From assembly GCA_000002435.2 (NCBI GenBank), contig CM018793.1: DNA of 64,000 bases; one strand, 5' to 3'. Of this stretch, positions 18,934 to 44,899 are shown in pieces. The position numbers and the translations under genes are program-made. The stretch is from Giardia intestinalis. Taxonomy: Eukaryota. The number at the start of each line of letters is the position of its first letter. Position 1 is the stretch's first letter. The notes below the pieces were generated by a model, which made no database searches, was not told where the DNA came from, and worked only from the letters and a program-made list of their open reading frames with translations.

Positions 18934-19034
18934 AAGCGGAAATTACAGAGTTCCTTGCGCAAAATTCAATTATATAATTATACTGAAATGTATAATTATA
19001 CTTCTCTATAATATTATGCGATGCACATTTTGCG

Positions 19035-20063: not shown

Positions 20064-20213
20064 GCTGATGACTGGAACATCAGCAACTGGATAATACAGA
20101 CTGGAAGCAGGGTTGCGGCACTTCGTGTACTTCTTCGAGTTGAGGAGCTTGCGGATCTCGCCCAGGCACTTCTCGAGGGACTTGTTCAGCTGTTCCTCCG
20201 AGATCTCCGCCCC

Positions 20214-20768: not shown

Positions 20769-20888
20769 ATTGATAGAAAACTTGGAGGCGTTGTTTCATG
20801 GCACTTTGGCACGGCCAGAAGCATGGGGCGCTGGTCCGTAGGGCCTGTTCTCCAGGGCCTTCTGCTTCTCGTGAAGGGAACGACGGGT

Positions 20889-22982: not shown

Positions 22983-23286
22983 CCTGGTTTTATTATTTTG
23001 GTAATCTGCCGTTTTGGAAACGGGCCGTTTTACATGGGTTCATATCTATAGGTCTACAGCAGTCCCGTGCCTGTATGGGCTTCTGTATCAGGGGCAAGAA
23101 GACCATCTGTGCAACCGTTTCACCCACCCCTGGCGCTCCAGTGCTGGCCGGGGGCGGAAGGACTGCTCCCCTGACCTCTGCGGAAACGGGCAGCTGTGTG
23201 ACCCACTGACGGCCACCACTTCATTAGTGTGTCTGTTCGCTGCATAGCTGGAGAGGCCCTAGTACACTATCGAATGCAATCAACAG

Positions 23287-24006
23287 TTAAGCGCGTTCAC
23301 TCACAAGTTTCCTGGGCGGCATCTGTAAGTATGGATCTACAATACCCTCACTCTCGAGAAAAGATGCTACCTCGGAGTGATTCCATCTATTGGCCGTACG
23401 GATGGCATGTACGCCACCTATGTCCCTCTCCTTCTCCAGTAGCAACTTGACACAGTCCAGATGATCATGCCCTGCTGCAAGCACGAGGGCAGTAAAACCT
23501 CTGCCTTTCTGCATGCCTCCCTCAGCATCCAGGAGCAGTCTCACGACCTCGGTGCGGCCAACAAGTGCCGCCCACATGAGGGCCGTATGCTCATTGCTGC
23601 TCCTCATGCCGCCCTCGCACCTCATCAGCAGCTTTACTACTTTGGTGTGTCCGAGCACCGCAGCGACCATCAGGGCCGTCCCCCCACTTATGTCTTTCCT
23701 CCCTGCCTTGACAAGCTTTGCCACCATCCTTGCCTGATAAGGGATGTAGCGCTTCACCGCTTTCACGTCGTTCCTGCTGGCTGCCTTCATAAGTGTGGTG
23801 ACGCCGTCCTCGTCCACACTGCCTTCATCATCCATTTCTGAAGACTCAGTTGGGTTTCCTGCGCCCTCTTCGCTCGTGTCCTTCTCGGGCGCGAGGGGCG
23901 GGGCGCAGTCGTGCTCCTGAAGGAACTGACTTGAATCATCCGCAGACGACATTTTTATCTCACATATTATAAAGGAAACGCATGTACTGGTAAACTTGCG
24001 ATTCAT
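23287..24006 (-). CDS. Ankyrin-repeat protein (Protein 21.1-like) with an acidic N-terminus.
   Basis: TALMVAAVLGHTKVVKLL, TALMWAALVGRTEVVRLL and TALVLAAGHDHLDCVKLL repeats. ATG at 24004-24006; a second in-frame ATG 18 codons in (MSSADD...) is an alternative start. Confidence 0.65.
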   Translation of the reverse strand: MNRKFTSTCVSFIICEIKMSSADDSSQFLQEHDCAPPLAPEKDTSEEGAGNPTESSEMDDEGSVDEDGVTTLMKAASRNDVKAVKRYIPYQARMVAKLVKAGRKDISGGTALMVAAVLGHTKVVKLLMRCEGGMRSSNEHTALMWAALVGRTEVVRLLLDAEGGMQKGRGFTALVLAAGHDHLDCVKLLLEKERDIGGVHAIRTANRWNHSEVASFLESEGIVDPYLQMPPRKLVSERA

Positions 24007-31376: not shown

Positions 31377-34300
31377 CTACTTCAGTATGGAAAACTTGAG
31401 GCTTTGTGCCACATATGCCATGCACATTACACCGATGGGGGGTATCTTCATCAGTGCACACAAATCTACACCTTGACCATTAGCCGATGCGCGCCAGCCC
31501 ACGCGAATAAGCACCGGGAGGTTCTGCGGATATGCTGCAAGGGGGATGGACATGAGAAGAGAAACGTTAGTCGGCTGCATTTCCACGAGGTTGAAGTTTG
31601 CTCTTTTGGCCTTACGAACGATCACAGCAGCAACCTCATCAATGCTTGAAATCCCTAAGTTGGCGTATGTCAGCGACGAAGTATCCCTGTGAGCCAGGCT
31701 GTCCTGGACAAGGCCCCAGTTCTTGTTAAACTGCTGCACAGCTTGCGTAGGATTGATCAGGTTGCGGTCCGGGCCATGCATATTTGAGGTCTCTGAGGCC
31801 AAGACATGAATGGGTATCTTACATTGGAACTGACAGGGCCCTGGGGCACCATCGCACTTTATCGCGAACGTGAGAAGATTTAGATTGCCAGTACACTGAG
31901 GATCTGGCTGGCTAAGACGGGCTTGATTGAACTGCGTGTTGGGATCTTGCTTGAATTGCACGGGAACGAGAACAGGCTCCCCACCATTACTCTTCTGTCC
32001 AGGCTCCACGGAAGCTATTGAAAGCTGAGGAGAAACGGGAGAAATCCCAAGACCATTGGGTGCAAATCCGATCAACAAGTTGGTGAGTGGAGCAGAGCCC
32101 TTGTTGTGTACTGTTAGAAGAAGGAGAGGCTTTTGGTTCTCGCGAGTCCAGGAAATAGAGACCCCCATGACACCGTGATCGTTGACAACACGGATAGGGG
32201 CGTTCTGCACAGTGGCAAACGGATAGTCCGAAGAAAAGTAGGGCAGAGAAGCAGCGAGTAACTGAGTGCTTGTGGGGGGCGCGACGGGTGGAGAGGCAGC
32301 CGGAGGCATGACAAGCTCTGGCTTGTGCTCTGGAGCAGGTACCGCAGGCGTCTCCACTTTCGGAGTTATGAACGAAGCTGCATTGAAACTTGGCGCTGGC
32401 TCGGTGACCGGAGGTGCAGTCGGTGCAACCGGCGCGGCAGCGGGAACAGGCTCCGATGCCGCAATGGGACCCCCAATGAGCGATGCCAGCTTGTCAGGGG
32501 CTGGAGGCTGGGTAATCGGAGCTGCGGGGGTTGCAGAGCCATGACTAAGTAAATCTGTCACTGGAGCGCCAAAGGCGGGCAGATTGGTAGCAGGTTGGAC
32601 TTGTCTAACTGGTGCTGTTGGAAGAGTCACGTTAGGAATCGTGTGTGCAGAGGCGAATGCTGCAGGAAGAGCCGCCGCCTCTGATGTAGCAATGCTTGAG
32701 ATAGTAGTCTCGGCGGTCAGCGGAGGAGGAAGAGTACTGGAAAGTGTGTCTGTCTTCGCACCCACAATCTCGTCATAATTCACCTCCTGGATGTTAGTTC
32801 CAACCGCGTCCAGAATACGGATGGCCTCCTCAACGTCAGGGCCGCTATAAACGGTATCTGTGATCATCTCACGCATTACGCAAGAAACACTACCGAGCTC
32901 GCGTACGAGTGTAGCACGAATTGCATCAGGCATGCCATCCGTTATCTGTGGGGCAGCCTTCTGGGAGAAAAGCACCCCTTTAGCCGTCTGAAGAGTCGGG
33001 TCAACACCGAGGAGCCTCCAATAGAAGGAAGCGCGTTGACGAACGTCGGGTGATTCTGCTCTTTCCGTCGCCAATTGGAGCGTGTGCTGCAAGAGTCTCT
33101 GAGTATCAATGGTAGGTACATGGAGGAAAAGCTTGGTGCAAGAGGTGATAAACTGAAGCTGCACAACGGCAGGCTCATCCAGAAATGAACCCTTGAAGTT
33201 AGGATCATAGTCCTCCTCGGTTGCGGTTAAGATAGGCGACAGACCAACTAAATCCGAAATAACCTCCTCCGACCCCTCAATACGGTTGGCATACTCTCCG
33301 ATGATCCAAATGAGCGCAGCCTTTGCGTCAGGGTCATCGAGGGTAACGATGGTTTCACAGAGGATTCCAATGATGCCTTCATAACGCTCTGGGTATCGCC
33401 TGAAAATAAGCTGTGTGGCGACCATAAGCTCCTGAGCAGCATAGTCGGGAAACTTATAGTACTGGGTCTCTCGCTCGGATTCTCCTTCCTCGCCGCTTTG
33501 GCCTGTGATAAGCTTAACAAAGCGATGAACTGCTAGATCGGCCGCCGCAGGGACACGGATGGCAACCGTGCCCAGTGCACGGATGCTAGCCCGGACAAAC
33601 TGGGGGTCAACGTCTCTAGCATACTCAGAGAGCTCCATCACGACCTCCTGACAGTTCTGCGAGTCCGCCAGAAGGGCAAGCATCTCGATCTTCTCAAGCT
33701 TGATGTACAGAGGGTCGTTATACTTGACAAAGAAGAGACGGATCTGCTTACTAAAGGGATTCTCCTGCTCCTGGTTGATGAACGCAGACGCCACAAGTCT
33801 CAGGCAACGAAGAGCGATCCACTGTGACTCTGGGGACGTCGAAGAGCCAACGAAGGAGAGAAGGGGCCCAACACACATACCCTGCACCTTGTAGCACTGC
33901 TCTGTATTAAGGATGGGAGGGTCGGCGTAGATGTACTTGAGGACTAGGTTGATAGTGACAAGGCTGACAGCCGGGTTGTTGTGGCGAAGGAAGTTTGCTA
34001 AACGTTGAATGGTCGCATCTGCTTCTTCATAGTTCAGAGGCAGTTGTCCATAATTTGCAATTGCTGTTAAAATGTGCATTGCCGACCATTCAGTAGATGA
34101 TGTGAGGGCTGTCAAAAGGGCCTGAACCTCCTGCCAGTTGAATAGCATGCCGATGTCCTGGATACCAAAGATCCCGTAAAGCTGCTCCGGCGAGAGCTGA
34201 GTGGCCACGTTGACAAGAGACGAGGCGGCGGCGGCGACTACAGCCTGGTTTCCGTCTGAAAGAAGCTCCTTCAGAATCAGCAGCATATTCATTTGAATAA

Positions 34301-34775
34301 CCATCTCAGGAGAGATCCTATAGATCTTGGCAACAGCCGTGGCGGCGGTCTTACGAACAAAGGGATCTGCGTCACCAAGTGCCCGCCCAATAGCATTTGT
34401 AAAGACCTGTAAGGTCTCCTGGGTGCACAAGTTCCCCATAGTACGGATTGCAAGGGCACGAATAACAGCCTGCTCACGGTCTTGAGAGTCCATATCCAAG
34501 ACAGAGCCTACCTGCACGGGGGTGTCCGGATTCATCTTATGGTAGTTCAGGACGAAAAGGTATACGACTTTCTTGAGCTTTATATCCTTGGTTGCGGCAA
34601 AACGGCAAACAAGGGGAAAGATGCTGCTGACGTCGCGCCCGAGAGATAGCGCAGAAAGTATCTGGCCGACAACCTCGCGGTGATCCTCAACCTTGTTAGA
34701 GGTCTGCAATTTTTCAGACCAAAACTCCAGCTCCTCCTTTGCTGCATTCTTGTCCTTGGCCTTTGAGCGGCTCAT
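31377..34775 (-). CDS. AP-complex beta-adaptin (large beta subunit of the AP-1/AP-2 type). Start moved to the ATG at 34773-34775.
   Basis: GRDVSSIFPLVC, LKKVVYLFVLNY, IRALAIRTMG and DPFVRKTAATAVAKI match beta-adaptin GKDVSSLFPDVV, LKKLVYLYLMNY, IRALAVRTMG and DPYVRKTAAVCVAKL. A Pro/Ala-rich hinge and a C-terminal appendage-like region follow. The track start 34814 is TTG. Confidence 0.85.
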   Translation of the reverse strand: MSRSKAKDKNAAKEELEFWSEKLQTSNKVEDHREVVGQILSALSLGRDVSSIFPLVCRFAATKDIKLKKVVYLFVLNYHKMNPDTPVQVGSVLDMDSQDREQAVIRALAIRTMGNLCTQETLQVFTNAIGRALGDADPFVRKTAATAVAKIYRISPEMVIQMNMLLILKELLSDGNQAVVAAAASSLVNVATQLSPEQLYGIFGIQDIGMLFNWQEVQALLTALTSSTEWSAMHILTAIANYGQLPLNYEEADATIQRLANFLRHNNPAVSLVTINLVLKYIYADPPILNTEQCYKVQGMCVGPLLSFVGSSTSPESQWIALRCLRLVASAFINQEQENPFSKQIRLFFVKYNDPLYIKLEKIEMLALLADSQNCQEVVMELSEYARDVDPQFVRASIRALGTVAIRVPAAADLAVHRFVKLITGQSGEEGESERETQYYKFPDYAAQELMVATQLIFRRYPERYEGIIGILCETIVTLDDPDAKAALIWIIGEYANRIEGSEEVISDLVGLSPILTATEEDYDPNFKGSFLDEPAVVQLQFITSCTKLFLHVPTIDTQRLLQHTLQLATERAESPDVRQRASFYWRLLGVDPTLQTAKGVLFSQKAAPQITDGMPDAIRATLVRELGSVSCVMREMITDTVYSGPDVEEAIRILDAVGTNIQEVNYDEIVGAKTDTLSSTLPPPLTAETTISSIATSEAAALPAAFASAHTIPNVTLPTAPVRQVQPATNLPAFGAPVTDLLSHGSATPAAPITQPPAPDKLASLIGGPIAASEPVPAAAPVAPTAPPVTEPAPSFNAASFITPKVETPAVPAPEHKPELVMPPAASPPVAPPTSTQLLAASLPYFSSDYPFATVQNAPIRVVNDHGVMGVSISWTRENQKPLLLLTVHNKGSAPLTNLLIGFAPNGLGISPVSPQLSIASVEPGQKSNGGEPVLVPVQFKQDPNTQFNQARLSQPDPQCTGNLNLLTFAIKCDGAPGPCQFQCKIPIHVLASETSNMHGPDRNLINPTQAVQQFNKNWGLVQDSLAHRDTSSLTYANLGISSIDEVAAVIVRKAKRANFNLVEMQPTNVSLLMSIPLAAYPQNLPVLIRVGWRASANGQGVDLCALMKIPPIGVMCMAYVAQSLKFSILK

Positions 34776-37312
34776 TTTTTGTGGCGGTTTTAAATACTTT
34801 GACGAATACTCCAATTTTAGAAATCACAGGGCTGCTCGGGCGCTACACAAGAATCCCTGAGCAGCACTTGCAATCTGTTTCTATTGCTCTTTATGAAAAG
34901 CTAGCCCCTTTTTCTAAGTTTACAGAAGATAGGATACAAGATAAGATCTCTGAAATAGACAGCACCTTGTCTCCAGAGTTTAGGAGACTATGTGCAAAGC
35001 TCATCAAGTCTTCTAGTCAATCCAGAGAGGCTGGGCCCAGGGGATATAGTGACCATTATAGAGCTGTTTCTTCTCTTCTGCGGGACGAGCAGGCCACACA
35101 TCTTTCTATAAAGAAAAACCCCCTTCGCTCTTTATCCTTGAATTCAGCCCGAAAGTTCTTTTGTTCAAATGGGTTGAATGCGCTCAATTCATTTGCAAGG
35201 GGTCATTCAACTCTAATTAGAACAACTACAGAAGCAACAAAGACTAAGCAGCTGGCCAATCTACCAATTACCTTACGCGCCGAAGAACTTGTGCGTCTTT
35301 TAGAAGAAAACGATGTATTGATTGTTATTGCAGAGACAGGATCCGGAAAGTCCACCCAACTTCCACAGATTCTCTACTCGCACTTCGGGTCGAGTCTCTT
35401 TATGATGGTTACTCAGCCTCGCCGCGTTTCAGCAATATCTTTGGCTCGATACGTAGACAGATGCATGTCACCACATTGTCGTCATGGGACGGCAGCATAT
35501 TCTGTTCGCTTTGAAAGTACCGTTACTCCTCATACGCAAATTACATATGCCACAGAGGGGATTTTGCTTAGGATGCTCATAGATGCAATGAAAGGCGATG
35601 AAGGGGCGATAGACATAATCCGCAAATATACCGTCTTCCTGATTGATGAAGTACATGAGAAGACAATCAATTCATATATTATTTTGTTTCTCCTTTGCAT
35701 TTTCAAAGGGCCCAAGATCCTCATCTGCTCTGCAACTGCGGAGACGGAGGCATTAAAGAAATATGTGCAGCAATTGAGCAAGAGCGTAGCTGCACTACAT
35801 GTTTGTGGCAAGACCTTTCCGGTAAAAGAGGTCTATTACGAGGATTTATACCCATCTGCACTTACGGAGCTTAATAGTAGCTTCTTTGGCCCACAGGGCT
35901 TCCTTGAGAAATGCATATCAGTCGTCCAATACCTGATTGACAATCATGCACACACACCACTGGATGGTGCCACAGCAGGATCATACCTGGTATTTCTACC
36001 AGGGAAGCAAGAAATTCACACGGCCATTTCAATGCTCAATATGGCAGAACGTAACAAACAGAGAGATGGCTCAACATACAAACTACTCCTACTACAGTGT
36101 TACTCTGGGCTGCCTGATGGGTCTATCCAACTGCTCTTTGACGCGCCTCCACCGGGGACAATAAAAATTATTTTCGCTACGAATGTTGCAGAGACGTCCA
36201 TAACCATTCCAGATGTAACGGTTGTGGTGGACTCCGGCTACTGCAAACAAATGATGTTTGACACAGAGACAGGATACTATCGCTTGGTCACAAAACGGAT
36301 ATCGAAAGCTCAGGCAGTGCAAAGAAAGGGCCGTGCAGGACGCGTACAAAAGGGAGCTGTATATAGAGCGTACACGCGGGCTATATATGCATCTCTTGAA
36401 GCCCATATCGAGCCAGAGATACTCCGGTGCGACCTTTCGTCTTCCACCTTGGCGCTCCTAACAGCAGGCTTCAGAATTGAAGACTCCTGGCTCTTAGATA
36501 GACCACCCGTTACAGCTATGGAGGCAGCTTACAGATACCTATACTCCCTTGGAGCTATATCTGACTCCATGGCCCTGACACCAATAGGGATGTGTCTATC
36601 AAAAATACCCGAAGATCCTAGGTTGGGGTCTGTACTTTTTGAAGCAGCCTCTCGCGGAACTTTGACCCCATGCGCCAGAATTGCTGCTGCCCTCTCTGTG
36701 CTCCAGAATGAGCATAGTTTCTTAATCTCTACTGCCACAGGGCCACCGGAACAGCAAGGGATAACCTTTGGGGGCTCACAAGGTGATCACTTGCTTCTTT
36801 TAAAAATCCTGGATGCTTATGCTGAGCTGAAGAAAGACCGAATAATTAGAGAGGAGTGGGCCAGGAGACATAGGCTAAGAGAACAAAAGATAATTGAGGC
36901 TCTTCAACTGGCAGAGAAGTATATCGGCTTATTAGCTGCGCTGACTGAGGTGCCAAATCCAGGTACATCTAAATCATCATACGATCGGGCCCTTACCAGT
37001 ACAACAAGTGAGATCTTACTTCCTTTCATCAAAGCAGGGCTATATAACGTACTTAGGCGCAACAGCTCTGGCCCAAGTGTAACGTACAGTAGGCTAAGCA
37101 AAGAGGACAATTCAGAGGAGATTCTTATCCACCTGTCAAGCTGCTTAAGGAACAGTGCCAACAGGTTCATTATTTGCGAAACTATTCTCAGCACAACTGC
37201 TCTATATGCATGCGTCTGTAGTCCTGTATCTGCTAAGGCATTAGCAATGCTATTTCCACACATGCTAGAGGTATATCGCGAACACCCAAAAAAGTGTTCT
37301 ATCAAGTGCTAG
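34739..37312 (+). CDS. DEAH-box (DHX-family) RNA helicase. The translation start is unresolved: the track start is TTG and there is no in-frame ATG before motif I.
   Basis: Motif I IAETGSGKSTQLPQ, motif II LIDEVHE, motif III SATAETE, motif V FATNVAETSITIPDVTVVVDSG, motif VI QRKGRAGRVQKG, and a C-terminal HA2/OB-like region. From the in-frame stop at 34697-34699 to residue ~220 (LFMMV) there is no ATG. The 5' end overlaps the beta-adaptin 5' coding end by 37 nt. Confidence 0.75.
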   Translation: MLHSCPWPLSGSFFVAVLNTLTNTPILEITGLLGRYTRIPEQHLQSVSIALYEKLAPFSKFTEDRIQDKISEIDSTLSPEFRRLCAKLIKSSSQSREAGPRGYSDHYRAVSSLLRDEQATHLSIKKNPLRSLSLNSARKFFCSNGLNALNSFARGHSTLIRTTTEATKTKQLANLPITLRAEELVRLLEENDVLIVIAETGSGKSTQLPQILYSHFGSSLFMMVTQPRRVSAISLARYVDRCMSPHCRHGTAAYSVRFESTVTPHTQITYATEGILLRMLIDAMKGDEGAIDIIRKYTVFLIDEVHEKTINSYIILFLLCIFKGPKILICSATAETEALKKYVQQLSKSVAALHVCGKTFPVKEVYYEDLYPSALTELNSSFFGPQGFLEKCISVVQYLIDNHAHTPLDGATAGSYLVFLPGKQEIHTAISMLNMAERNKQRDGSTYKLLLLQCYSGLPDGSIQLLFDAPPPGTIKIIFATNVAETSITIPDVTVVVDSGYCKQMMFDTETGYYRLVTKRISKAQAVQRKGRAGRVQKGAVYRAYTRAIYASLEAHIEPEILRCDLSSSTLALLTAGFRIEDSWLLDRPPVTAMEAAYRYLYSLGAISDSMALTPIGMCLSKIPEDPRLGSVLFEAASRGTLTPCARIAAALSVLQNEHSFLISTATGPPEQQGITFGGSQGDHLLLLKILDAYAELKKDRIIREEWARRHRLREQKIIEALQLAEKYIGLLAALTEVPNPGTSKSSYDRALTSTTSEILLPFIKAGLYNVLRRNSSGPSVTYSRLSKEDNSEEILIHLSSCLRNSANRFIICETILSTTALYACVCSPVSAKALAMLFPHMLEVYREHPKKCSIKC

Positions 37313-38322
37313 GTGCACATTTTAATAAAGAGGCTGATAAGCTTCCAATCTGATATCTCCGGCTTTGTTAGCTGCTGCAGAGGCGGCAGCTTCCTGTACC
37401 CCTTCTCTAGCTTCTCTAGGATCTCCCTTATGCTCTCTATATTGTCTGCCTGCCTTACGGGAAGGTTTTTCTGCGCCCACTTTTTCTTACAAAAGGCATC
37501 AATGGGTATCAAATTACACCCTGCAATCTCAGAGGAGCAAAGTGCCTCTGCTTTCTCCAGCATGGAGTCTGGTACGCCGGGGGCAAAGTGAAGATGGTAC
37601 CCAGAGGCAGTCAGCTTGATGGGGTCTGATCGTATTAGCGGTGTCTGTCCGGAGAGAAAATCATACGGCCCGATGGGCATGGGTCCCCATGCATTCATAG
37701 GAAGAATCGCCTTGAGGTCTTGATGGTAGTAGCAATACGGATCCCACAGAAAAGGACCGAGATAGAGCTGAGTTTCTTCGTATGCTTCTCTAAGAGAGGC
37801 GACAGTCGAGTCCTCTCCGTCCTCTAAACCACCCTTGGGAATAGAGTATTTGGGTCCGTGCATAAATTGGCCTCGAACAAGCAGCACTTTCGTCAAGTCT
37901 TGGTTAAGAATAACAAGAGCCGCTTTTTCACCGTTTATGCGCAGCCTCGAGTGCTCGCGAAGCTTCTTTAGACACACATCAATAAATGACTCCCAAGAGT
38001 TAGAGATGTCTTCAAAGAAAGCACGCTCTCTCATGACGGAGAGGTACGCCTTTAAGAAGCACTTAATTAGAAAGGTCTCCCGCTGGTTCTGGAATTCAGC
38101 CGCGATCTCCGGATCTTTAAGGAGCCCGTAGTTATCTAGAACATAGTAAAATGCCATAAAGAAAAGACTTATAATATGTTTAGACAGGGTGTGCCAATTT
38201 TCCTCCTCCTTGCAGAGAGCGGTGAGATTATAAAAGCGATAAATTACCTCCTTTTCTGCTATAGTAAGCGCGAACTTTGTAGGGACTTGCGAGTCTTGCT
38301 CGTCTCGCTGAGCCTTACTCAT
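37309..38322 (-). CDS. DCP2: Nudix hydrolase with a Dcp2-like N-terminal domain, a candidate mRNA decapping enzyme Dcp2. Start moved to the ATG at 38320-38322.
   Basis: Nudix box GGLEDGEDSTVASLREAYEETQL. Upstream, AALVILNQDLTKVLLVRGQF...KYSIPKGG matches Dcp2 GAIILN...KVLLVKG...WGFPKGK. There is an alpha-helical N-terminal domain. The stop overlaps the helicase stop (CTAG). Confidence 0.6.
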   Translation of the reverse strand: MSKAQRDEQDSQVPTKFALTIAEKEVIYRFYNLTALCKEEENWHTLSKHIISLFFMAFYYVLDNYGLLKDPEIAAEFQNQRETFLIKCFLKAYLSVMRERAFFEDISNSWESFIDVCLKKLREHSRLRINGEKAALVILNQDLTKVLLVRGQFMHGPKYSIPKGGLEDGEDSTVASLREAYEETQLYLGPFLWDPYCYYHQDLKAILPMNAWGPMPIGPYDFLSGQTPLIRSDPIKLTASGYHLHFAPGVPDSMLEKAEALCSSEIAGCNLIPIDAFCKKKWAQKNLPVRQADNIESIREILEKLEKGYRKLPPLQQLTKPEISDWKLISLFIKMCT

Positions 38323-38367
38323 GATGATATTTTTCAATGTTAAAGCTTGTACCGTTTTAATTTAAAG
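38323..38367. promoter_or_regulatory. 45-bp AT-rich divergent intergenic region between the Dcp2-like and PMCA genes, a putative bidirectional initiator region.
   Basis: gatgatatttttcaatgttaaagcttgtaccgttttaatttaaag. AT-rich tracts abut both ATGs, consistent with Giardia short AT-rich initiator promoters. Confidence 0.4.
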
Positions 38368-41300
38368 ATGTCCAGCGGGGGCTTTCGCCACAGTCCGGAG
38401 GATCTCAAGGCCCTAATGACGGATGCGACCGTCGAGAGCCTAAGGACGCGGTTCGAGGGCACCGACGGCCTTTTGAGGAGTCTGAAGACTACCAGTCTCA
38501 AGGGGTTATCATCTAAGGATGTCCCCAAGCATTTGGAGTATTATGGACGCAACAAGGTCGAGCCAAGACCCCCTAAGTCCTTCTGTAGGCTTTTCTTCGA
38601 GACCTTCAAGGATGTGACCATCATCATCCTCCTAATTGCCTCGATTGTTTCAATAATCGTTGGTTCCATTCCCTCACTCAGCGAAGAGGAGTACGGCTGG
38701 ATTGATGGAGTTGCAATACTGGTTGCCGTCCTGATAGTTGCTCTGGTGTCGTCAATTAACGAATTCTCTAAGGAGAAGCAGTTTCGTAAGCTTAACGCTA
38801 TAAAGAATAACAAGCAAATTAAAGTCGTAAGAGACGGAAAAGAGACAGTCGTTTCCATTTTTGACGTAGTTGTTGGTGATATTGTCGTCATGGAGCTAGG
38901 CGATCAGATTCCTGCAGACGGTGTCCTCGTCTCTTGCAATGACATGAAGTGTGATGAGTCTGGGATGACCGGTGAAAGTGATGAAATTAAAAAGGATCTT
39001 GCTGCAAATCCGTTCGTGATCGGGAGCTGCCTTGTCACTCATGGATCTGGGCGCATGGTCGTTGCTGCTGTTGGCAAGTACAGTAAGCACGGCGATATTC
39101 TTGCTACCCTTCAGGAGGAGGATGAGCAGACCCCCCTGCAAGAGAAGCTCGAGGTTCTTGCGAAGTACATCGGCTATGCTGGGATTGCTGCTGCCATTCT
39201 CACGTTCATTGTTCTGGTTTCCCGGTTCTTTGTTGATGGCCGTCAAAGCAATTCAAAGAACTTCACGCAGTGGGTCGGCTATATGATCACGTCGATCACC
39301 ATCATCGTCGTCGCCGTGCCGGAGGGCCTTCCGCTTGCTGTGACGATCTCTCTTGCGTTTTCTATGAAGAAGATGATGCGTGACCAGTGCCTCGTCCGGA
39401 AGCTTCATGCATGTGAAACGATGGGCAGTGTCAATAATATTACCAGTGACAAGACCGGAACACTTACTCTCAACAGAATGACGGTCGTTCGCATGAGGAT
39501 TGAGAACAGCTTTTACTTGAGGACAAGTGGTAAAACGAGTGCCGATGACTCCGAGTGTTCTCCAATGCCGGATGCCGAGGCGATCGCAGACAAGAAGTTT
39601 TCCAGGGGTGTTGCGGGCATTTTTGCATTGAACTCGGCACTTAACTCTACCGCCAACCTCCGTGTTGATGAGAGTAGTAAGCCTCCAAAGGGTATTAAGA
39701 GGGGCAAAGCAGCCGTGGCTGAGGAGGACGGGTCGTCTTCTATTGAGGTCATTGGCAACAAGACAGAGGGCGCGCTCTTGATGCTTTCACGCGACATGGG
39801 ATTCGACTACCAGGAGTTCAGAGAGATGCTTGTCATAGACGGACAGGCCAAGGGCGCAATCGCGCATGCCTTTGAGTTTACGTCTGATCGTAAGAGGATG
39901 TCCGTGGTTTTAGATCTGGAAAAGTTTGGGAAGACGAGTGCTGCTGAAAGCTTAAAGGGCGCTCTCGATCTAATTGACGATCGTCGTTCTTACCTTGTTC
40001 TGTCTAAAGGTGCTTCCGAGATAATGTTGGAGCGCTGCAGAAACATTCTTAAGACAGATGGGACTGTTGTGCCTCTCACAGAGAGCATGCGTTCCGAATA
40101 TGAGAAAACGATTATCTCATATGCAACCAAGTCACTCCGCACTCTTTGCGTTGCCTATAGGTCGGTTTCCAAGGTTGACGGAGACAGGAAGGAGGGTGCC
40201 ACGATGGAGGATGGTACAGTGGAGAACATCCACAACTACGCCAATGCGGATTATATTGAGAAGGATCTTACGCTGATATGCTTAGTCGGCATCATGGACC
40301 CTTTGCGCCCTGGTGTCACTAATGCCGTAGAGCGCTGCAAGCGTGCTGGAATCACTGTGCGGATGGTTACAGGCGACAACAAGATCACTGCTGTTGCCAT
40401 TGCAAAAGAATGTGGAATCCTTCCAGACGACATATCGGACGATATAATTGATAAGTACGTTACTACAGGGCCAGAGTTCCGCAAGCTTTCAGATACAGAG
40501 TTGGACGAGATCCTTGATACCCTCCGAGTCATTGCGCGTGCTGCTCCTAAAGACAAGTACCGCTTGGTCAAGAGACTGAAGCACTACAACCACACGGTCG
40601 CTGCGACGGGTGACGGATCCAACGATGCTCCCCAGCTCAAGGCTGCAGACGTGGGACTTGCTATGGGGATTGCCGGGACTGAGGTAGCCAAGGAGGCCTC
40701 CGACATAATAATTATGGATGATAACTTCCTCTCTATCGTCCGTGCTGTGGAGTGGGGTCGTGCAGTCCTTACAAATGTTCGCAAGTTCCTTCAATTCCAG
40801 CTCACTGTCAATGTTGCTGCCGTCGTCGTTGCTTTCCTCGGAGCGGCTGTTCTGGAGGAGTCTCCGCTGACTGCTCTGCAGATGCTTTATGTCAACCTCC
40901 TCATGGACTCTCTCGGTGCGCTGGCTTTAGCGACTGAAGACCCAGCTAAGAATGTGCTTGACTATGAGCCTGTCCATAGAGCTGCCAGCCTCATCGCCCC
41001 TGGCATGCTGCGCAACATTCTCATCGTCGCCTTCTATCAGATCGCTGTTATCCTTCTAATGATCTTTGGTGTGGTAGGAGACACCCTGCTCATGGTTCCA
41101 GATTCTGTTAAGTGTATACCCATGGCTGACGGCTCGTGCGCCTACAACGAGCACGGAGCAAAGGCCTACAGGTATACGTGCATATACAATTTCTTTATAT
41201 TCGCCCAGCTTTTCAATGAAATCAGTTCGAGGCGTATAAACAATGAGCTCAACGTCTTCTCTGGCCTCCACAAATCACCCATGTTCATCTTAATCTTCCT

Positions 41301-41655
41301 CGGTACGGTCGGTATGCAACTCATTATTATGCTTGCTCCTGGTGTCCGTTATATCTTCCATATCTTCGACTGTAGTGAGAACCACCAGAGCTACTGTGGG
41401 AATAGCCATGATCACGGTATCCTCTGGCAGTCGTGGGCCATCACCTTGGCCTTTGCACTCTTCACTGTATTTGTCCACCTCTTTGGAAGGCTGAAGAAAC
41501 TGAAGCCTGAGTTCAAGGTTAGTGAGAAGGCAGCCAAGAGGGCCATGGAGAAGAAGAACGCTCGCGCGGCTAAGAGAGAAAAGAAGGCCGACAAGGAGAA
41601 AAGGGCTGGTAAGGCGGAGGCGAAGAAACTTCTCGAGCCATCTGGTAGCGACTGA
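38368..41655 (+). CDS. Plasma-membrane-type (type IIB) Ca2+-transporting P-type ATPase, with all catalytic motifs intact. Start moved to the ATG at 38368.
   Basis: TGES (SGMTGESDEI), PEGLPLAVTISLAFS (PMCA M4 signature), DKTGTLT at 39448-39468, MVTGDNKITA, GDGSNDAPQLKAADVGLAMG, and M6 YVNLLMDSLGALALATE. The N-terminus is PMCA-like and the C-terminal tail is Lys-rich. Confidence 0.85.
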   Translation: MSSGGFRHSPEDLKALMTDATVESLRTRFEGTDGLLRSLKTTSLKGLSSKDVPKHLEYYGRNKVEPRPPKSFCRLFFETFKDVTIIILLIASIVSIIVGSIPSLSEEEYGWIDGVAILVAVLIVALVSSINEFSKEKQFRKLNAIKNNKQIKVVRDGKETVVSIFDVVVGDIVVMELGDQIPADGVLVSCNDMKCDESGMTGESDEIKKDLAANPFVIGSCLVTHGSGRMVVAAVGKYSKHGDILATLQEEDEQTPLQEKLEVLAKYIGYAGIAAAILTFIVLVSRFFVDGRQSNSKNFTQWVGYMITSITIIVVAVPEGLPLAVTISLAFSMKKMMRDQCLVRKLHACETMGSVNNITSDKTGTLTLNRMTVVRMRIENSFYLRTSGKTSADDSECSPMPDAEAIADKKFSRGVAGIFALNSALNSTANLRVDESSKPPKGIKRGKAAVAEEDGSSSIEVIGNKTEGALLMLSRDMGFDYQEFREMLVIDGQAKGAIAHAFEFTSDRKRMSVVLDLEKFGKTSAAESLKGALDLIDDRRSYLVLSKGASEIMLERCRNILKTDGTVVPLTESMRSEYEKTIISYATKSLRTLCVAYRSVSKVDGDRKEGATMEDGTVENIHNYANADYIEKDLTLICLVGIMDPLRPGVTNAVERCKRAGITVRMVTGDNKITAVAIAKECGILPDDISDDIIDKYVTTGPEFRKLSDTELDEILDTLRVIARAAPKDKYRLVKRLKHYNHTVAATGDGSNDAPQLKAADVGLAMGIAGTEVAKEASDIIIMDDNFLSIVRAVEWGRAVLTNVRKFLQFQLTVNVAAVVVAFLGAAVLEESPLTALQMLYVNLLMDSLGALALATEDPAKNVLDYEPVHRAASLIAPGMLRNILIVAFYQIAVILLMIFGVVGDTLLMVPDSVKCIPMADGSCAYNEHGAKAYRYTCIYNFFIFAQLFNEISSRRINNELNVFSGLHKSPMFILIFLGTVGMQLIIMLAPGVRYIFHIFDCSENHQSYCGNSHDHGILWQSWAITLAFALFTVFVHLFGRLKKLKPEFKVSEKAAKRAMEKKNARAAKREKKADKEKRAGKAEAKKLLEPSGSD

Positions 41656-41765
41656 TTCCTTGTCCCATCCTAGTAGGTCTGATAACCTAAGCATTTAGAG
41701 TAAAGGACTTTCTTTTATATTATATTGTTAGTGAGAGTTGACAAAGAAGGGGGTTATGTAAAAAA

Positions 41766-44114
41766 ATGTCTGCTCCAACAACCGCAGACCTGCTCGCACT
41801 GTTTACTTCTCGAGACCTCGGGGCACTTAGAGACAAGTATGGCAGTATAGAAGGTCTAGCAAAAGAATTGGGGTCTGACCCTGCCACAGGCCTTTTGAAA
41901 CCTACCGTTTTGCTCCATCGAAAAACCTATGGTAGCAATACAATGCCTCTTCGGCGGCCGAGAGGATATGGTTGGGCATTTCTCAGAGGTCTGAAAGACC
42001 CCGTGGTGATTGTACTAACTGTCATCTCCATTTTGTTGATTACCTTCGGATTGCTTCCGGATTATACCTATGATGTTTATGCATGGATTGACGGGGTGAT
42101 TACCCTAGTGATGCTTTTGCTACTCTTGTCTATTAATGCGGCTATTGTTTACCATAAGGACAAAGTGCTGTGGCAGGCTAACGTAAACGCCAATAAGCAT
42201 ACTGTCACTGTGGTCAGAGATGGCAGACCCCAAGATGAATCGTCTGACAGCCTTGTAGTAGGTGATGTGGTATGTCTTACTGCTGGTTCGTTTGTCCCCG
42301 CTGATGGCGTCTTGCTGATTAATACTGACGTGAAAGTGATCACTGATCTGTCTACGGTTCTAAATGGCTCATTAACGAGCACGTCCGTAACCCAAACAAC
42401 TGATCCATTCCTGAGTGCAGGAACATACATTAGCGACGCCACCGAAGAGGTGCGAATGCTCGTGCTAGTTGTTGGAGAGGCCACTATTTTAGGGAAGACT
42501 CGCTTGAGCAAGGGCTATCAGAACTTTGCAACAGACCTCCAGAAGCGTTTAGAAAAGCTTTATCGGTGGACAACAATCGGATCGCTAATAGGCTCACTGA
42601 TTATATTCCTTGTCATGGCTGTTCGATTCTTCTTGGCAGGGACGGCCAATGATAATCGACAGGTCACTACTGTAGTGCGGCAGATCTCCATTGCGCTCAT
42701 CGTCTTTATTGTTACGGCACCAGAGGCTCTTCAGATGGCACTAAGCCTTTCGTTGAGTTACAGTATGAAGACCATGTGTAAGGATGGCATCCATATAAAG
42801 AACTACGATTCCATTGAAAACCTTGCGTGCTGTACTCATCTTGTTCTTTCCACAAACACGCTTCCATCAACTCAGGACGAACTCCTTCAAGCATCTAGCG
42901 CAGGGATCAAGCTATGCTACGCCTCTTCTGACCCCCATGACATAGCTGTTAATAAGGCAAAGGTCGCTGGATTGCTGGATCAGGACTCTTCCTGTGTAGC
43001 TTCTGTGCGCGCGTCTGAGCTATTCTCTTATCCTCAGGAAACCATTAATATGAGGCTGAAGGAGACGCACGTTATCTCGGAGATAACGGCGCAAGATCTG
43101 CACCGTCTCGTATGCTTCCTTAGAAGCCCAGAGGACGTGGTTGCGTATATTGGAACAGATAACCTGCATGCTGCTGCATTGCGTACTGCCGATGTGGGAC
43201 TATCTACCAGGCTCAATGGGACGGATCTCTGCAAAGACAGTTCAGATATTGTGCTTGAGCAGGGTAGCTTTTCTGATCTTATTGAGGCTATCCGCTGGGG
43301 CAGCAACATTGTGCACAATGTAAGGAAGTTTATCCAGTTTCAATATACTGCGGGCGTACTGGTCATCCTCCTCACGCTCCTGTCCTCTGCAATCTTCAAC
43401 ATAATACTTTTCTCTGCTGCTCAGCTGCTCTACATCAACCTTGTCATAGATGCTCTGGCTGCGTTCGCTTTTGGAGGTGAGCCTCCGCACCGCACGGGTA
43501 GTGTTCCTCCACTATTGAGGAGGACCTATAAAATTTTCAATCCGTCCATGACGAGAAATATATACATCTCGGCTCTCTTTACCCTAGTGTCATGCATCCT
43601 AGCACTTATTCCCGATGTTGCAGATAAGCTTTTTGGAATCCCTAGTCGACTGGGCGGTCCCTCTGCCACAGAGGACGAGTTTGCACTGGCGCTGGCTAAT
43701 AGCTTCAAGCAGACGTGTGCATACAACATCCTCGTTATCTCGCTTATTTTTAATATGTTTTGGGCAAGAACTACGTATAGGGAGATGAATGTGTTTGTTT
43801 ACATTAAAAAGTCCATCAATATGTGGATTGTTATTGCAGTGATTGCATGTACCCATGTCGTAGTCATGATGGTTCCTGGGGTGACTTTTGTTTTCAAGAC
43901 ATTTAACTGTCTAGGCGACTCGTGTCTTTTAGGCGGAGCCAATGGGGTCGTTCCGCACCCCCTGAAGTTTTTTAGTATAGGATGGCAAGGGTGGATTGTG
44001 ACTCTTGTATTAGGTGCTCTCGTTTTGCCTTGCAACCTGCTTTTTAGATTGCTTCCAATGGCACGGGAGTACGGGTATAGAGGAGCAGGGGGCGTTTCTG
44101 CCTCCAAGCTGTAG
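41766..44114 (+). CDS. PMCA paralog lacking all catalytic P-type ATPase motifs (predicted pseudo-ATPase), in tandem 110 nt downstream of the intact PMCA.
   Basis: The PMCA-like N-terminus and 10-TM architecture are retained, as are M4 PEALQMALSLSLSYS and M6 YINLVIDALAAFAFGGE. DKTGT is replaced by STNTL (42849-42863). TGES is replaced by NGSL. VTGDN is replaced by IGTDN. GDGSND is degenerate. Confidence 0.7.
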   Translation: MSAPTTADLLALFTSRDLGALRDKYGSIEGLAKELGSDPATGLLKPTVLLHRKTYGSNTMPLRRPRGYGWAFLRGLKDPVVIVLTVISILLITFGLLPDYTYDVYAWIDGVITLVMLLLLLSINAAIVYHKDKVLWQANVNANKHTVTVVRDGRPQDESSDSLVVGDVVCLTAGSFVPADGVLLINTDVKVITDLSTVLNGSLTSTSVTQTTDPFLSAGTYISDATEEVRMLVLVVGEATILGKTRLSKGYQNFATDLQKRLEKLYRWTTIGSLIGSLIIFLVMAVRFFLAGTANDNRQVTTVVRQISIALIVFIVTAPEALQMALSLSLSYSMKTMCKDGIHIKNYDSIENLACCTHLVLSTNTLPSTQDELLQASSAGIKLCYASSDPHDIAVNKAKVAGLLDQDSSCVASVRASELFSYPQETINMRLKETHVISEITAQDLHRLVCFLRSPEDVVAYIGTDNLHAAALRTADVGLSTRLNGTDLCKDSSDIVLEQGSFSDLIEAIRWGSNIVHNVRKFIQFQYTAGVLVILLTLLSSAIFNIILFSAAQLLYINLVIDALAAFAFGGEPPHRTGSVPPLLRRTYKIFNPSMTRNIYISALFTLVSCILALIPDVADKLFGIPSRLGGPSATEDEFALALANSFKQTCAYNILVISLIFNMFWARTTYREMNVFVYIKKSINMWIVIAVIACTHVVVMMVPGVTFVFKTFNCLGDSCLLGGANGVVPHPLKFFSIGWQGWIVTLVLGALVLPCNLLFRLLPMAREYGYRGAGGVSASKL

Positions 44115-44119
44115 TCTAC

Positions 44120-44126
44120 TGTAAAC
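44120..44126 (+). promoter_or_regulatory. Poly(A)-signal-like TGTAAAC, 6 nt after the stop of the PMCA paralog.
   Basis: Variant of AGTRAAY. Confidence 0.3.
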
Positions 44127-44146
44127 GCCAGTTGATATTTAAAACT

Positions 44147-44899
44147 ATGGGTAAGCACCAGCGGTTGGTTCCCATCCTTGCATCAATAGGCTTGGTGTCT
44201 TCGACCACCATTATCTGTCTCCTTGCTTTCCGACACGATATGGTTCTAGAGTTTCTCGGGCTTACATACTTCGTCAACATGATTGGTCTTTTGCCTATAT
44301 TATCCATTCTCTACTTTATCGGCATGTTCTGTTATGGAGCATCGAACTCCATACACAGGAATTTCACAAGTACAGCTGCATGCACAATCTTTCTAATTTC
44401 AATTGTCATGCAGATCATTGAGCTGTCTTTGTTACAGTCCTCAGCATCCAGCATGCTGTATCTCCTAACAGCCACTCTCGGTATTGCGGCGTCCCTGGTG
44501 TCTGCACTGCATCAATCGCCGTCAATATTATTTACCTTTATTGTAAAAGCGGTTCCGTTAACAAACGCAGCTTACTCTGTACTACAGTTCTCGTTGTTGA
44601 AGAAAAACGATGTGGTACTCCTGATCGCTAATGCATGCCTGGCATCGGTCGCATTTTTTGTAGTATCAGTTCTTCCATTGGCAGCACTTGCAGTGGGGAA
44701 CGTTTTAATATATGTCGACTACTCTGGTCAGGCCCTAGGCTCAACGGCGATGTCTGCAGCTACGATTGAGGCATCTCTGACAGCCATTCTAGCAGCCATG
44801 GAGGTCATCAAGTACACAAACATTCGGAAGGAAATATTGATGGATATCAAGCAGAAGCAGCAGCGCGGCGTGCCTAACTCGTACGCAACAATGGATTAG
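44147..44899 (+). CDS. Hypothetical multi-pass membrane protein, about 250 aa with 6-7 TM helices. Start moved to the ATG at 44147.
   Basis: Strongly hydrophobic segments throughout. The track start 44132 is TTG. No family motif. Confidence 0.4.
   Translation: MGKHQRLVPILASIGLVSSTTIICLLAFRHDMVLEFLGLTYFVNMIGLLPILSILYFIGMFCYGASNSIHRNFTSTAACTIFLISIVMQIIELSLLQSSASSMLYLLTATLGIAASLVSALHQSPSILFTFIVKAVPLTNAAYSVLQFSLLKKNDVVLLIANACLASVAFFVVSVLPLAALAVGNVLIYVDYSGQALGSTAMSAATIEASLTAILAAMEVIKYTNIRKEILMDIKQKQQRGVPNSYATMD

What the first reader, a model, noticed from the sequence alone, without database searches (positions are those of the whole stretch)
38368..44114. Tandem pair of an intact PMCA-type Ca2+ pump and a paralog that has lost every catalytic P-type ATPase motif
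Two adjacent same-strand genes, 110 nt apart, share the PMCA N-terminus, the 10-TM architecture and the M4/M6 signatures. The upstream copy has canonical TGES, DKTGTLT, TGDN and GDGSNDAP. The downstream copy has STNTL in place of DKTGT, so the phospho-accepting Asp is gone. It also has NGSL in place of TGES, IGTDN in place of VTGDN, and a degenerate GDGxND. It still keeps the M4 Glu (PEALQ) and the M6 Asn/Asp Ca-coordinating positions. This is a full-length pseudo-enzyme derived from a pump. It may be a Ca-binding membrane scaffold or channel-like regulator co-expressed with its active twin.
Basis: partly seen in the sequence, partly recalled or inferred. Interest (0 to 1): 0.75.

Follow-up and report, generated by a model that had tools for sequence, protein, structure and literature searches.

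The report
Conserved dead calcium-pump paralog in Giardia
Next to its working calcium pump, Giardia duodenalis keeps a second copy that has lost its ATP-binding domain and every catalytic residue, so it cannot pump; natural selection has nevertheless preserved it, which suggests a pump body reused for an unknown non-pumping job.

Summary
The tandem pair is real. Gene 1 (38368-41655, +, 1095 aa, GL50803_32658) is a complete PMCA-type P2B Ca2+-ATPase. Gene 2 (41766-44114, +, 782 aa) is a homologue 110 nt downstream.

Gene 2 has no phospho-Asp (S362 in STNTL), no TGES (NGSL), no TGDN (SSDP), no phosphate-binding Lys (Leu) and no GDGxND (GTDNLH).

Gene 2 is not full length. About 290 residues, the whole nucleotide-binding domain, are cleanly excised.

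Gene 2 is not a decaying pseudogene:
- Intact syntenic orthologues with the same excision occur in five G. duodenalis-complex lineages.
- dN/dS is 0.09 (95% CI 0.07-0.12), and it is below 0.2 in the dead A- and P-domain remnants too.
- AlphaFold gives a confident PMCA-like 10-helix fold.
- The PMCA Ca2+ triad (E320, N558, D562) is invariant.

G. muris and other diplomonads lack gene 2. In G. muris the active pump abuts the gene that lies downstream of the dead copy here.

ATP-driven pumping is excluded. The actual role is inferred only; a Ca2+-binding regulatory partner is my best guess. No paper I could search describes gene 2. Databases label it as an ordinary PMCA.

The parts
38368..41655 (+). 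Active PMCA-type (P2B) Ca2+-ATPase, 1095 aa (GL50803_32658; UniProt A8B9U2)
   Evidence: It has all five Pfam domains: Cation_ATPase_N, E1-E2_ATPase, Cation_ATPase, Hydrolase and Cation_ATPase_C. It has canonical TGES, DKTGT, TGDN and GDGSND. dN/dS is 0.034.
39442..40308 (+). Segment of the active gene (residues 359-647: phosphorylation motif plus the whole nucleotide-binding domain) with no counterpart in the downstream copy
   Evidence: The two BLASTP blocks and the MAFFT alignment show the gap. Twenty positions invariant in 20 active PMCAs fall inside it.
41656..41765 (+). 110-nt intergenic spacer. It holds AGTAAA (41699-41704), which looks like a Giardia polyadenylation signal, and an A/T-rich stretch ending in AAAAAAATG.
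   Evidence: Sequence. The published 3' UTR of the upstream gene is 57 nt, which ends the mRNA near 41712. Reading AGTAAA as the poly(A) signal and the A/T-rich stretch as an initiator rests on general knowledge of Giardia.
41766..44114 (+). Catalytically dead, N-domain-less PMCA paralogue, 782 aa (UniProt A8B9T9, XP_001708561)
   Evidence: Pfam finds only Cation_ATPase_N, E1-E2_ATPase and Cation_ATPase_C. The AlphaFold model has pLDDT 81 and pTM 0.80. The best structural matches are PMCA structures. Five intact orthologues exist. dN/dS is 0.092.
42363..42374 (+). NGSL at the position of the A-domain TGES dephosphorylation loop (the Glu is replaced by Ser or Thr)
42720..42734 (+). M4 motif PEALQ (PEGLP in pumps). 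P319 and E320 are invariant in the five orthologues. E320 corresponds to hPMCA1 E433.
   Evidence: Alignment to 6a69_A. Invariant columns. Ca2+-site definition from PMC6127144.
42840..42866 (+). Junction LVLSTNTLP. S362 sits where the phospho-accepting Asp should be, and the N domain is replaced by a short loop that joins the two P-domain halves directly.
   Evidence: In the model, strand 358-361 is followed by helix 370-378, with pLDDT about 84-91.
42924..42935 (+). SSDP at the position of TGDN
43089..43112 (+). AQDLHRLV at the position of PKDKYRLV. The conserved phosphate-binding Lys is replaced by Leu in all five orthologues.
43152..43169 (+). GTDNLH at the position of GDGSND. The Mg2+/phosphate-coordinating Asp, Asn and Asp are lost.
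43437..43451 (+). M6 motif NLVID. N558 and D562 are invariant and correspond to hPMCA1 N891 and D895.

Best explanation
Gene 2 is a pseudo-pump maintained by selection. It descends from a diplomonad PMCA-type Ca2+-ATPase and sits in tandem with the active pump. Its nucleotide-binding domain was excised, and every residue needed for ATP binding, aspartyl-phosphate formation and dephosphorylation was replaced.

Shown:
- It cannot run the Post-Albers ATP-driven cycle.
- It is nevertheless kept intact under purifying selection in all its parts: the 10-helix membrane domain, the A domain and the remnant P-domain Rossmann core.
- It keeps the three side chains that form the single PMCA Ca2+ site.

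Inferred:
- In canonical P-type ATPases the extracellular gate opens only in the phosphoenzyme. An unphosphorylatable copy is therefore most likely confined to cytoplasm-facing, E1-like states.
- In such states it could still bind Ca2+ or H+ at site II.
- I therefore think it most likely acts as a non-catalytic, Ca2+-binding regulatory or structural membrane partner, plausibly of the neighbouring active PMCA, rather than as a transporter. Dead-paralogue 'prozymes' and transporter-derived sensors are the precedents.

My confidence that it is a conserved non-pumping pseudoenzyme is about 0.9. My confidence in the specific regulatory-partner mechanism is about 0.3.
For: - Homology and architecture: Pfam, BLASTP, phmmer against PDB and Foldseek all place it with PMCA and ACA pumps. 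The best structural fit is 6a69, TM-score 0.82 normalised to the query.
- Loss of catalysis.
- Not a pseudogene: five intact orthologues at 70-100% identity have the same excision and the same gene order.
- Selection: dN/dS is 0.092 (CI 0.070-0.120) at dS 0.57. It is 0.08-0.16 in the A and P remnants and 0.07-0.10 in the membrane helices.
- New constraint: of 133 positions invariant in 20 active PMCAs, 56 are kept in all five dead orthologues. Another 39 are replaced by a different residue that is itself invariant in the dead clade.
- Ca2+ site: E320, N558 and D562 correspond to hPMCA1 E433, N891 and D895 and are invariant.
- Fold: the model is confident and fits E1-state structures (TM 0.78-0.82) better than E2 states (0.55-0.61).
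Against: - There is no direct evidence of expression, localisation or interaction.
- The dead copy was not found in the one proteome supplement that lists the active copy. It is absent from the stored part of an RNA-seq table, which covers FPKM 38.55 and above, while the active copy is at 121. Both files are incomplete.
- Retention of the Ca2+ triad is not statistically compelling by itself. About 46% of universally invariant positions in M3-M6 are retained, so keeping three named ones has a chance probability near 0.1.
- The M5 Asn that is invariant in all active PMCAs is Gly or Ser here, and the second Pro of PEGLP is variable. The site may therefore be remodelled.
- The E1-like conformation of an AlphaFold model driven by an alignment of active pumps is not evidence for the native state.
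- Gene adjacency in Giardia does not imply functional linkage.
Confidence: 0.45

Rival explanations
1. Passive ion pathway. With the ATP-driven gates gone, the membrane domain would act as a Ca2+ (or Ca2+/H+) leak, uniporter or channel: a natural pump-to-channel conversion.
For: - The buried acidic and polar Ca2+ ligands E320, N558 and D562 stay invariant across divergences where dS exceeds 1.
- The membrane helices are the most constrained part, with omega 0.02-0.09.
- There are many fixed replacements in M4, M5 and M6 (G to A, N to G, T to G, three L to F) that could reshape the pathway.
Against: - From established P-type ATPase mechanism, the outward gate opens only in E2P, which needs the phospho-Asp and TGES docking. 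Both are gone.
- Nothing in the sequence shows an open pore.
- The A and P remnants are also under selection. A bare pore would not obviously need them.
- No flux data exist.
Confidence: 0.17
2. Autonomous Ca2+/H+ sensor or membrane scaffold unrelated to the neighbouring pump. It would be a transporter-derived receptor that uses its cytosolic headpiece to recruit other proteins.
For: - The two genes are separate transcription units, and the expression levels are apparently different from the active copy.
- Thirty-nine new invariant residues, many in the cytosolic P remnant, fit a new binding surface.
- The A domain keeps 13 of 18 universally invariant positions despite losing TGES.
Against: No partner is known, and there are no localisation data. 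The evidence does not distinguish this from the regulatory-partner model.
Confidence: 0.25
3. Non-functional relic: a decaying duplicate or an annotation artefact that happens to keep an open reading frame.
For: - It evolves about 2.5 to 7 times faster than the active copy, with omega 0.09-0.13 against 0.02-0.03.
- A 732-aa truncated allele, caused by a 1-bp deletion in a C5 run, appears in three read-archive assemblies.
- It was not seen in the proteome supplement searched.
Against: - The ORF is intact in five lineages whose synonymous sites are near saturation (dS 0.6 to above 2), and omega is far below 1 in every domain.
- Indel-free alignment, identical excision boundaries and a confident fold all argue for function.
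- At least 22 other contigs carry the full-length allele. One of the three assemblies with the deletion also has a frameshift in the active pump gene, which suggests sequencing error.
Confidence: 0.03

Closest known systems
Plasma-membrane Ca2+-ATPases (P2B P-type ATPases: human PMCA1 6A69, mouse PMCA 9GS*, Arabidopsis ACA8 8QMP)
   Same: - Common descent is supported: phmmer E-values are 2.6e-61 (ACA8) and 1.1e-50 (PMCA1), and Foldseek TM-score is up to 0.82.
- It shares the N-terminal Cation_ATPase_N segment, the A-domain fold, the P-domain Rossmann core and ten transmembrane helices.
- The single Ca2+ site II triad of E (M4), N and D (M6) is retained.
   Different: - It has no N domain, no DKTGT, no TGES, no TGDN, no phosphate-binding Lys and no GDGxND.
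- It has no basic C-terminal tail.
- M4 reads PEAL(Q/K/S) instead of PEGLP, and the M5 Asn is Gly or Ser.
- It therefore cannot be an ATPase.
Trypanosomatid 'prozymes': catalytically dead paralogues of AdoMetDC and deoxyhypusine synthase that activate the active enzyme as heteromers (from my own knowledge)
   Same: A dead paralogue in a protist parasite, retained by selection alongside its active paralogue. This is the model for the regulatory-partner hypothesis.
   Different: Prozymes are soluble enzymes with demonstrated heteromer formation. Here no interaction is shown, and the protein is a polytopic membrane protein with a whole domain deleted.
Transporter-derived sensors, such as yeast Snf3/Rgt2 and Ssy1 (from my own knowledge)
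   Same: A transporter fold that keeps its substrate-binding site but no longer transports and signals instead. This is the model for the sensor hypothesis.
   Different: Those are secondary carriers of the MFS and APC families with added signalling tails. This is a primary-pump scaffold with a domain removed, and no signalling output is known.
P4-ATPase-like module of apicomplexan guanylyl cyclases (PfGCalpha, PMC7858053)
   Same: A P-type ATPase body recruited to a role other than bulk ion pumping in a parasitic protist.
   Different: In PfGCalpha the module keeps its DKTGT Asp, which appears to be essential, and it is fused to cyclase domains. The Giardia protein is free-standing and lacks the Asp and the N domain.

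Membership tests
P-type ATPase (catalytic membership) | DKTGT motif with the phospho-accepting Asp | tested here: not met
   The position reads S362-T-N-T-L. Ser is invariant in the five orthologues, and no DKTG occurs in any frame.
P-type ATPase (catalytic membership) | Nucleotide-binding (N) domain inserted in the P domain | tested here: not met
   There is no PF13246 or PF00702 hit. Active residues 359-647 have no counterpart. tblastn of that segment finds nothing else in the window.
P-type ATPase (catalytic membership) | A-domain TGES dephosphorylation loop | tested here: not met
   It reads NGSL or NGTL, with the Glu replaced by Ser or Thr.
P-type ATPase (catalytic membership) | P-domain TGDN, conserved Lys and GDGxND (Mg2+/phosphate coordination) | tested here: not met
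   These read SSDP, Leu and GTDNLH respectively.
P-type ATPase superfamily (by descent and fold) | Homologous A domain, P-domain core and 10-helix membrane domain with a Pro-unwound M4 | tested here: met
   Pfam gives E1-E2_ATPase 3.8e-19, Cation_ATPase_C 5.1e-26 and Cation_ATPase_N 1.2e-13. The AlphaFold model has ten TM helices at pLDDT 81. Foldseek top hits are all P2 ATPases. P319 and E320 are retained.
P2B (PMCA/ACA) subfamily by descent | Closest relatives are PMCA/ACA pumps, with a single Ca2+ site II (E in M4; N and D in M6) | tested here: met
   The best PDB sequence and structure hits are ACA8 and PMCA1/2. A profile of the dead clade scores Giardia-group PMCAs highest, at 368-395 bits. 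The triad E320/N558/D562 corresponds to E433/N891/D895.
P2B (PMCA/ACA) subfamily by descent | Calmodulin-binding autoinhibitory terminal extension | not tested
   The basic C-terminal tail of the active Giardia copy is absent from the dead copy. Calmodulin binding was not tested for either protein.
Pseudoenzyme (dead homologue retained by selection) | Catalytic residues lost, but the ORF is conserved under purifying selection in several lineages | tested here: met
   There are five intact syntenic orthologues. Omega is 0.092 (CI 0.070-0.120), and it is below 0.25 in every domain except the last 17 residues.
Unitary or decaying pseudogene | Frame disruptions and neutral evolution (omega near 1) | tested here: not met
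   The only disrupted allele seen is a 1-bp homopolymer deletion in three read-archive assemblies.

The most novel reading that the evidence does not exclude
The protein would be the first natural example of a P-type pump converted, by clean excision of its nucleotide-binding domain, into an ATP-independent device. That device would be either a passive Ca2+-selective pathway or a Ca2+-sensing receptor that uses the preserved site II and a remodelled A/P headpiece. It would give a minimal organism that lacks canonical IP3 and ryanodine receptors a new kind of Ca2+ entry or sensing element.
Probability: 0.2. Interest if true: 0.85.

Novelty: new variant of a known kind. Interest (0 to 1): 0.6.

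Why it matters
- **A new kind of pseudoenzyme.** P-type ATPases are among the best understood membrane machines, but selection-maintained, catalytically dead members are hardly described. None that I could find lacks the whole N domain.
- **A natural experiment.** This protein shows which parts of a pump are worth keeping when pumping is abandoned: the membrane domain with its ion site, the actuator domain and the Rossmann core.
- **Giardia calcium biology.** Ca2+ signalling in Giardia is poorly understood, and the components known from other eukaryotes are largely missing. The gene is a concrete new candidate for a Ca2+-handling or pump-regulating component.
- **A lineage marker.** The gene is specific to the G. 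duodenalis complex and absent from G. muris.

Tried and rejected
1. **Frame error or hidden exon.** I scanned all six frames of 41600-44200 for DKTG, TGES, TGDN and GDGxND. I also ran tblastn of the active N-domain segment against the window with gene 1 masked. Nothing was found.
2. **Recent pseudogene.** Rejected by the orthologue, synteny and dN/dS analyses.
3. **Orthologues outside the G. duodenalis complex.** An exhaustive HMMER search of 1.84 billion representative proteins, using a profile of the dead clade, found only the clade's own representative at full length (1653 bits). The next hit is an active Giardia PMCA at 389 bits. One apparently N-less hit, P0218 (820 aa), turned out to be an N-terminally truncated active Hexamita-type pump that has DKTGT.
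4. **Dating the duplication.** This is unresolved.
   - Neighbour-joining with bootstraps, signature-site counts, profile scores and my own maximum-likelihood placement test (BLOSUM62-derived model plus gamma, 10 placements) all show a stem branch of about 1.8-1.9 substitutions per site.
   - Maximum likelihood prefers the base of the diplomonad PMCAs (RELL 0.77).
   - A duplication after the G. muris split is 14.7 lnL units worse (z = 1.8). No placement is rejected at z above 1.96, and long-branch attraction is expected.
5. **Literature.** Ten full-text searches found no paper on this protein and none on N-domain-less or dead P2-ATPases.
6. **Expression of the dead copy from supplements.** Only the active copy (GL50803_32658) was found. 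The files are truncated, so absence is weak evidence. I could not recover the GL50803 identifier of the dead copy.
7. **Structure search of AFDB50 for other N-less pumps.** The library was unavailable.
8. **Family of the downstream 250-aa membrane protein.** No Pfam match, even at E = 1.

Full report
**What is in the sequence**

The interval 38368-44114 holds two ORFs on the + strand.
- Gene 1, 38368-41655, encodes 1095 aa.
- Gene 2, 41766-44114, encodes 782 aa.
- The spacer between them is 110 nt.

Exact look-ups identify the organism as Giardia duodenalis (intestinalis) strain WB. The proteins are UniProt A8B9U2 (gene 1) and A8B9T9 (gene 2). [quoted passage not shown] Gene 1 is GL50803_32658.

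Gene 1 matches all five Pfam models of a P2-type ATPase. It carries TGES, DKTGT, TGDN, GDGSND, PEGLP and NLLMD.

Gene 2 matches only Cation_ATPase_N, E1-E2_ATPase and Cation_ATPase_C.

**Anatomy of the dead copy**

BLASTP aligns gene 2 residues 8-359 with gene 1 residues 12-358. It aligns gene 2 residues 367-769 with gene 1 residues 648-1049, at 27-28% identity (E = 1e-43 and 2e-47).

The roughly 290 residues between those blocks in gene 1 have no counterpart in gene 2. They contain the phosphorylation motif region and the whole nucleotide-binding domain.

Motif by motif:

| Pump motif | Dead copy | Note |
|---|---|---|
| TGES | NGSL | Glu replaced by Ser or Thr |
| DKTGT | STNTL | S362 in place of the Asp; Ser invariant |
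| TGDN | SSDP | |
| PKDK (phosphate-binding Lys) | AQDL | Lys replaced by Leu |
| GDGSND | GTDNLH | |

IGTDN is the degenerate GDGxND.

No canonical motif and no N-domain-like coding potential exists in any other frame of the gene or elsewhere in the window.

The AlphaFold2 model has mean pLDDT 81.3 and pTM 0.80. It shows:
- ten transmembrane helices;
- a beta-rich A domain;
- a complete Rossmann-type P-domain core, in which the strand that normally carries DKTGT (358-361) is joined by a short loop (362-369) to the helix that normally follows the N domain.

This is a clean domain excision. Foldseek against the PDB returns PMCA and ACA structures first. The best fit is 6A69, with TM-score 0.82 normalised to the query. 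E1-state structures fit better (0.78-0.82) than E2 states (0.55-0.61). That conformational preference comes from a model built on an alignment of active pumps, so I give it little weight.

**What is retained**

The residue-level alignment to human PMCA1 maps E320, N558 and D562 of the dead protein onto E433, N891 and D895. The PMCA1 structure paper names these as the Ca2+-binding site (PMC6127144). All three are invariant in the five orthologues.

I audited 133 positions that are invariant in 20 active PMCAs, from diplomonads to animals and green algae:
- 56 are kept in all five dead orthologues;
- 39 are replaced by a different residue that is itself invariant in the dead clade, which indicates a new constraint;
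- 38 are replaced and variable;
- 20 further invariant positions lie in the deleted segment.

The A domain keeps 13 of 18 such positions. The C-terminal half of the P domain keeps only 9 of 36.

Retention of the Ca2+ triad alone is not statistically strong. About 46% of invariant M3-M6 positions are retained, so the chance probability is near 0.1. The M5 Asn that is invariant in active pumps is Gly or Ser here.

**It is not a pseudogene**

A word-indexed search of 5.8 billion proteins found five clusters of full-length relatives with the same three-domain Pfam signature:
- WB (100% identity);
- P15 (90%);
- a metagenome scaffold (78%);
- two read-archive assemblies, ERR3333383 and ERR3333382 (74% and 70%).

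I take these to be different assemblages of the G. duodenalis complex. Only P15 is named by its source.

All five have the same excision boundaries. All five have the same gene order: helicase, NUDIX, active PMCA, dead copy, 250-aa membrane protein, NIF phosphatase, WD40.

Nei-Gojobori estimates:

| Comparison | dN | dS | omega (95% CI) |
|---|---|---|---|
| Dead copy, WB against P15 | 0.052 | 0.565 | 0.092 (0.070-0.120) |
| Active copy, WB against P15 | | | 0.034 (0.024-0.046) |
| Dead copy, all ten pairs | | | 0.08-0.13 |

By region of the dead copy:
- membrane helices 0.02-0.14;
- A domain 0.09-0.19;
- P remnant 0.09-0.14;
- only the last 17 residues look neutral.

**Distribution and origin**

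An exhaustive HMMER search with a profile of the dead clade found no further member. The clade's representative scores 1653 bits. The next hit is an active Giardia-type PMCA at 389 bits, and all other hits score 284 bits or less.

In G. muris, and in a G. muris-like assembly, the active PMCA is followed after 34 nt by a 247-aa gene. That gene is the orthologue of the 250-aa gene lying downstream of the dead copy here (29% identity over the full length, E = 2e-38). The dead copy therefore sits exactly between two genes that are adjacent in G. muris. This means either a tandem duplication in the G. duodenalis lineage or a clean loss in the compact G. muris genome.

Sequence-based dating fails:
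- The stem leading to the dead clade is about 1.8-1.9 substitutions per site.
- Neighbour-joining bootstraps scatter its position within or at the base of the diplomonads.
- My maximum-likelihood placement test prefers the base of the diplomonad PMCAs (RELL 0.77).
- That test disfavours a duplication after the G. muris split (delta lnL 14.7, z = 1.8). No placement is rejected at z above 1.96, and long-branch attraction is expected.
- Profile scores fall from Giardia-group pumps (368-395 bits) to hexamitids (324-357) to outgroups (214-280).
- Both copies share a Cys-containing insertion between M9 and M10 that is specific to diplomonads.

The parent was therefore a diplomonad PMCA, probably of the Giardia lineage. 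The timing relative to G. muris stays open.

**Transcription**

The spacer contains AGTAAA at 41699-41704 and an A/T-rich run abutting the ATG of gene 2. From general knowledge of Giardia, these resemble the AGTRAA-type polyadenylation signal and the A/T-rich initiator.

A published strand-specific RNA-seq table gives gene 1 a 3' UTR of 57 nt in three isolates and 59 nt in a fourth. It gives an FPKM of 121 in WB (PMC3610916 supplement). This places the mRNA end near 41712, before gene 2, so the genes are separate transcripts.

The stored part of that table runs down to FPKM 38.55 and does not contain the dead copy. An encystation proteome supplement lists only the 1095-aa protein (PMC3877021). 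Both files are truncated or selective, so this only suggests that the dead copy is expressed at a lower level. It does not show silence.

**Mechanism**

Shown: the protein cannot bind ATP through an N domain, cannot form the aspartyl phosphate and cannot catalyse its hydrolysis. ATP-driven pumping is excluded.

Shown: selection maintains the membrane domain, the A domain and the P core.

Inferred from the established Post-Albers mechanism:
- Opening of the extracellular gate requires the E2P state.
- An unphosphorylatable copy should therefore stay in cytoplasm-facing or occluded states.
- In those states site II can still bind Ca2+ or H+.

I therefore favour a non-transporting role, as a Ca2+-binding regulatory or structural partner. 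The most economical candidate partner is the adjacent active pump. The analogies are dead-paralogue activators in trypanosomatids and transporter-derived sensors in yeast, both from my own knowledge.

The rivals are:
- a passive Ca2+ pathway, supported by the many fixed changes in M4-M6 but mechanistically harder;
- an autonomous sensor or scaffold;
- a non-functional relic, which is practically excluded.

**Novelty**

Ten full-text searches found no description of this protein. They also found no description of any conserved N-domain-less, catalytically dead P2-type ATPase. A recent review of open questions on P-type ATPases contains no mention of such proteins (PMC10654040).

The gene itself is already annotated, as an ordinary PMCA. 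I classify the finding as a new variant of a known kind: a pseudoenzyme derived from a P-type pump.

Interest is moderate to high for pump and pseudoenzyme specialists and for Giardia Ca2+ biology. It is limited by the narrow taxonomic range and by the absence of any functional data.

Noticed in passing
window 44147-44899 (+); G. muris locus L005 11293-12036: A 250-aa multi-pass membrane protein with no Pfam match lies 32 nt downstream of the dead pump. Its G. muris orthologue (29% identity, E = 2e-38) lies 34 nt downstream of the active pump. The adjacency of pump and this gene is conserved between the two species, although all other neighbouring genes differ. Its dN/dS is 0.03-0.06. It could be an unrecognised pump accessory protein, or the adjacency could be chance.
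   Followed up: partly
window 43958-43962 (C5 run in the dead gene); loci L011, L012, L013: Three read-archive assemblies (SRR13990248, SRR13990249, SRR22286255) carry a 1-bp deletion (C5 to C4). It creates an immediate TGA and a 732-aa product lacking M10 (protein P0070). One of these assemblies also has a frameshift in the active pump gene, so a homopolymer sequencing error is likely. A real allele in a laboratory line is not excluded.
   Followed up: partly
window 41287-41400 (active copy) and 43890-43990 (dead copy), approximate: All diplomonad PMCAs, and the dead copy, share an insertion between M9 and M10 containing two Cys. It reads F-x-I-F-D-C...C...G-I-x-W-Q-x-W in the active copy and F-K-T-F-N-C...C...I-G-W-Q-G-W in the dead copy. 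Dictyostelium and animal PMCAs lack it. It would be an extracellular loop, possibly disulphide-bonded, and it is the least confident part of the model (pLDDT about 50-64).
   Followed up: no
window 49312-63972 (-): A giant ORF of more than 4886 aa runs off the end of the window. The orthologous genes are 6316-6325 aa in two other lineages and have no Pfam match.
   Followed up: no
window 18001-24000 and 32001-34000: Two patches have clearly higher G+C (0.52-0.56) than the rest of the window (about 0.45-0.48).
   Followed up: no
window 34739-37312 (+) and 37309-38337 (-): The DEAH-type helicase ORF and the convergent NUDIX ORF overlap by 4 nt at their 3' ends. The NUDIX start lies only about 30 nt from the start of the divergently transcribed active pump gene. 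Both illustrate how little intergenic space is available for regulation here.
   Followed up: no
loci L006 (SRR30592944) and L007 (SRR31929897); protein P0092: Read-archive and metagenome assemblies contain PMCA genes from Giardia relatives that I could not name. One lineage is G. muris-like: P0091 is 67% identical to the WB active pump and has the same gene order as G. muris. Two deeper lineages, P0092 and P0093, are 56-57% identical and group with Giardia in the trees. Neither contig examined (L006, L007) has a dead copy next to the pump; P0092's contig was not examined.
   Followed up: partly
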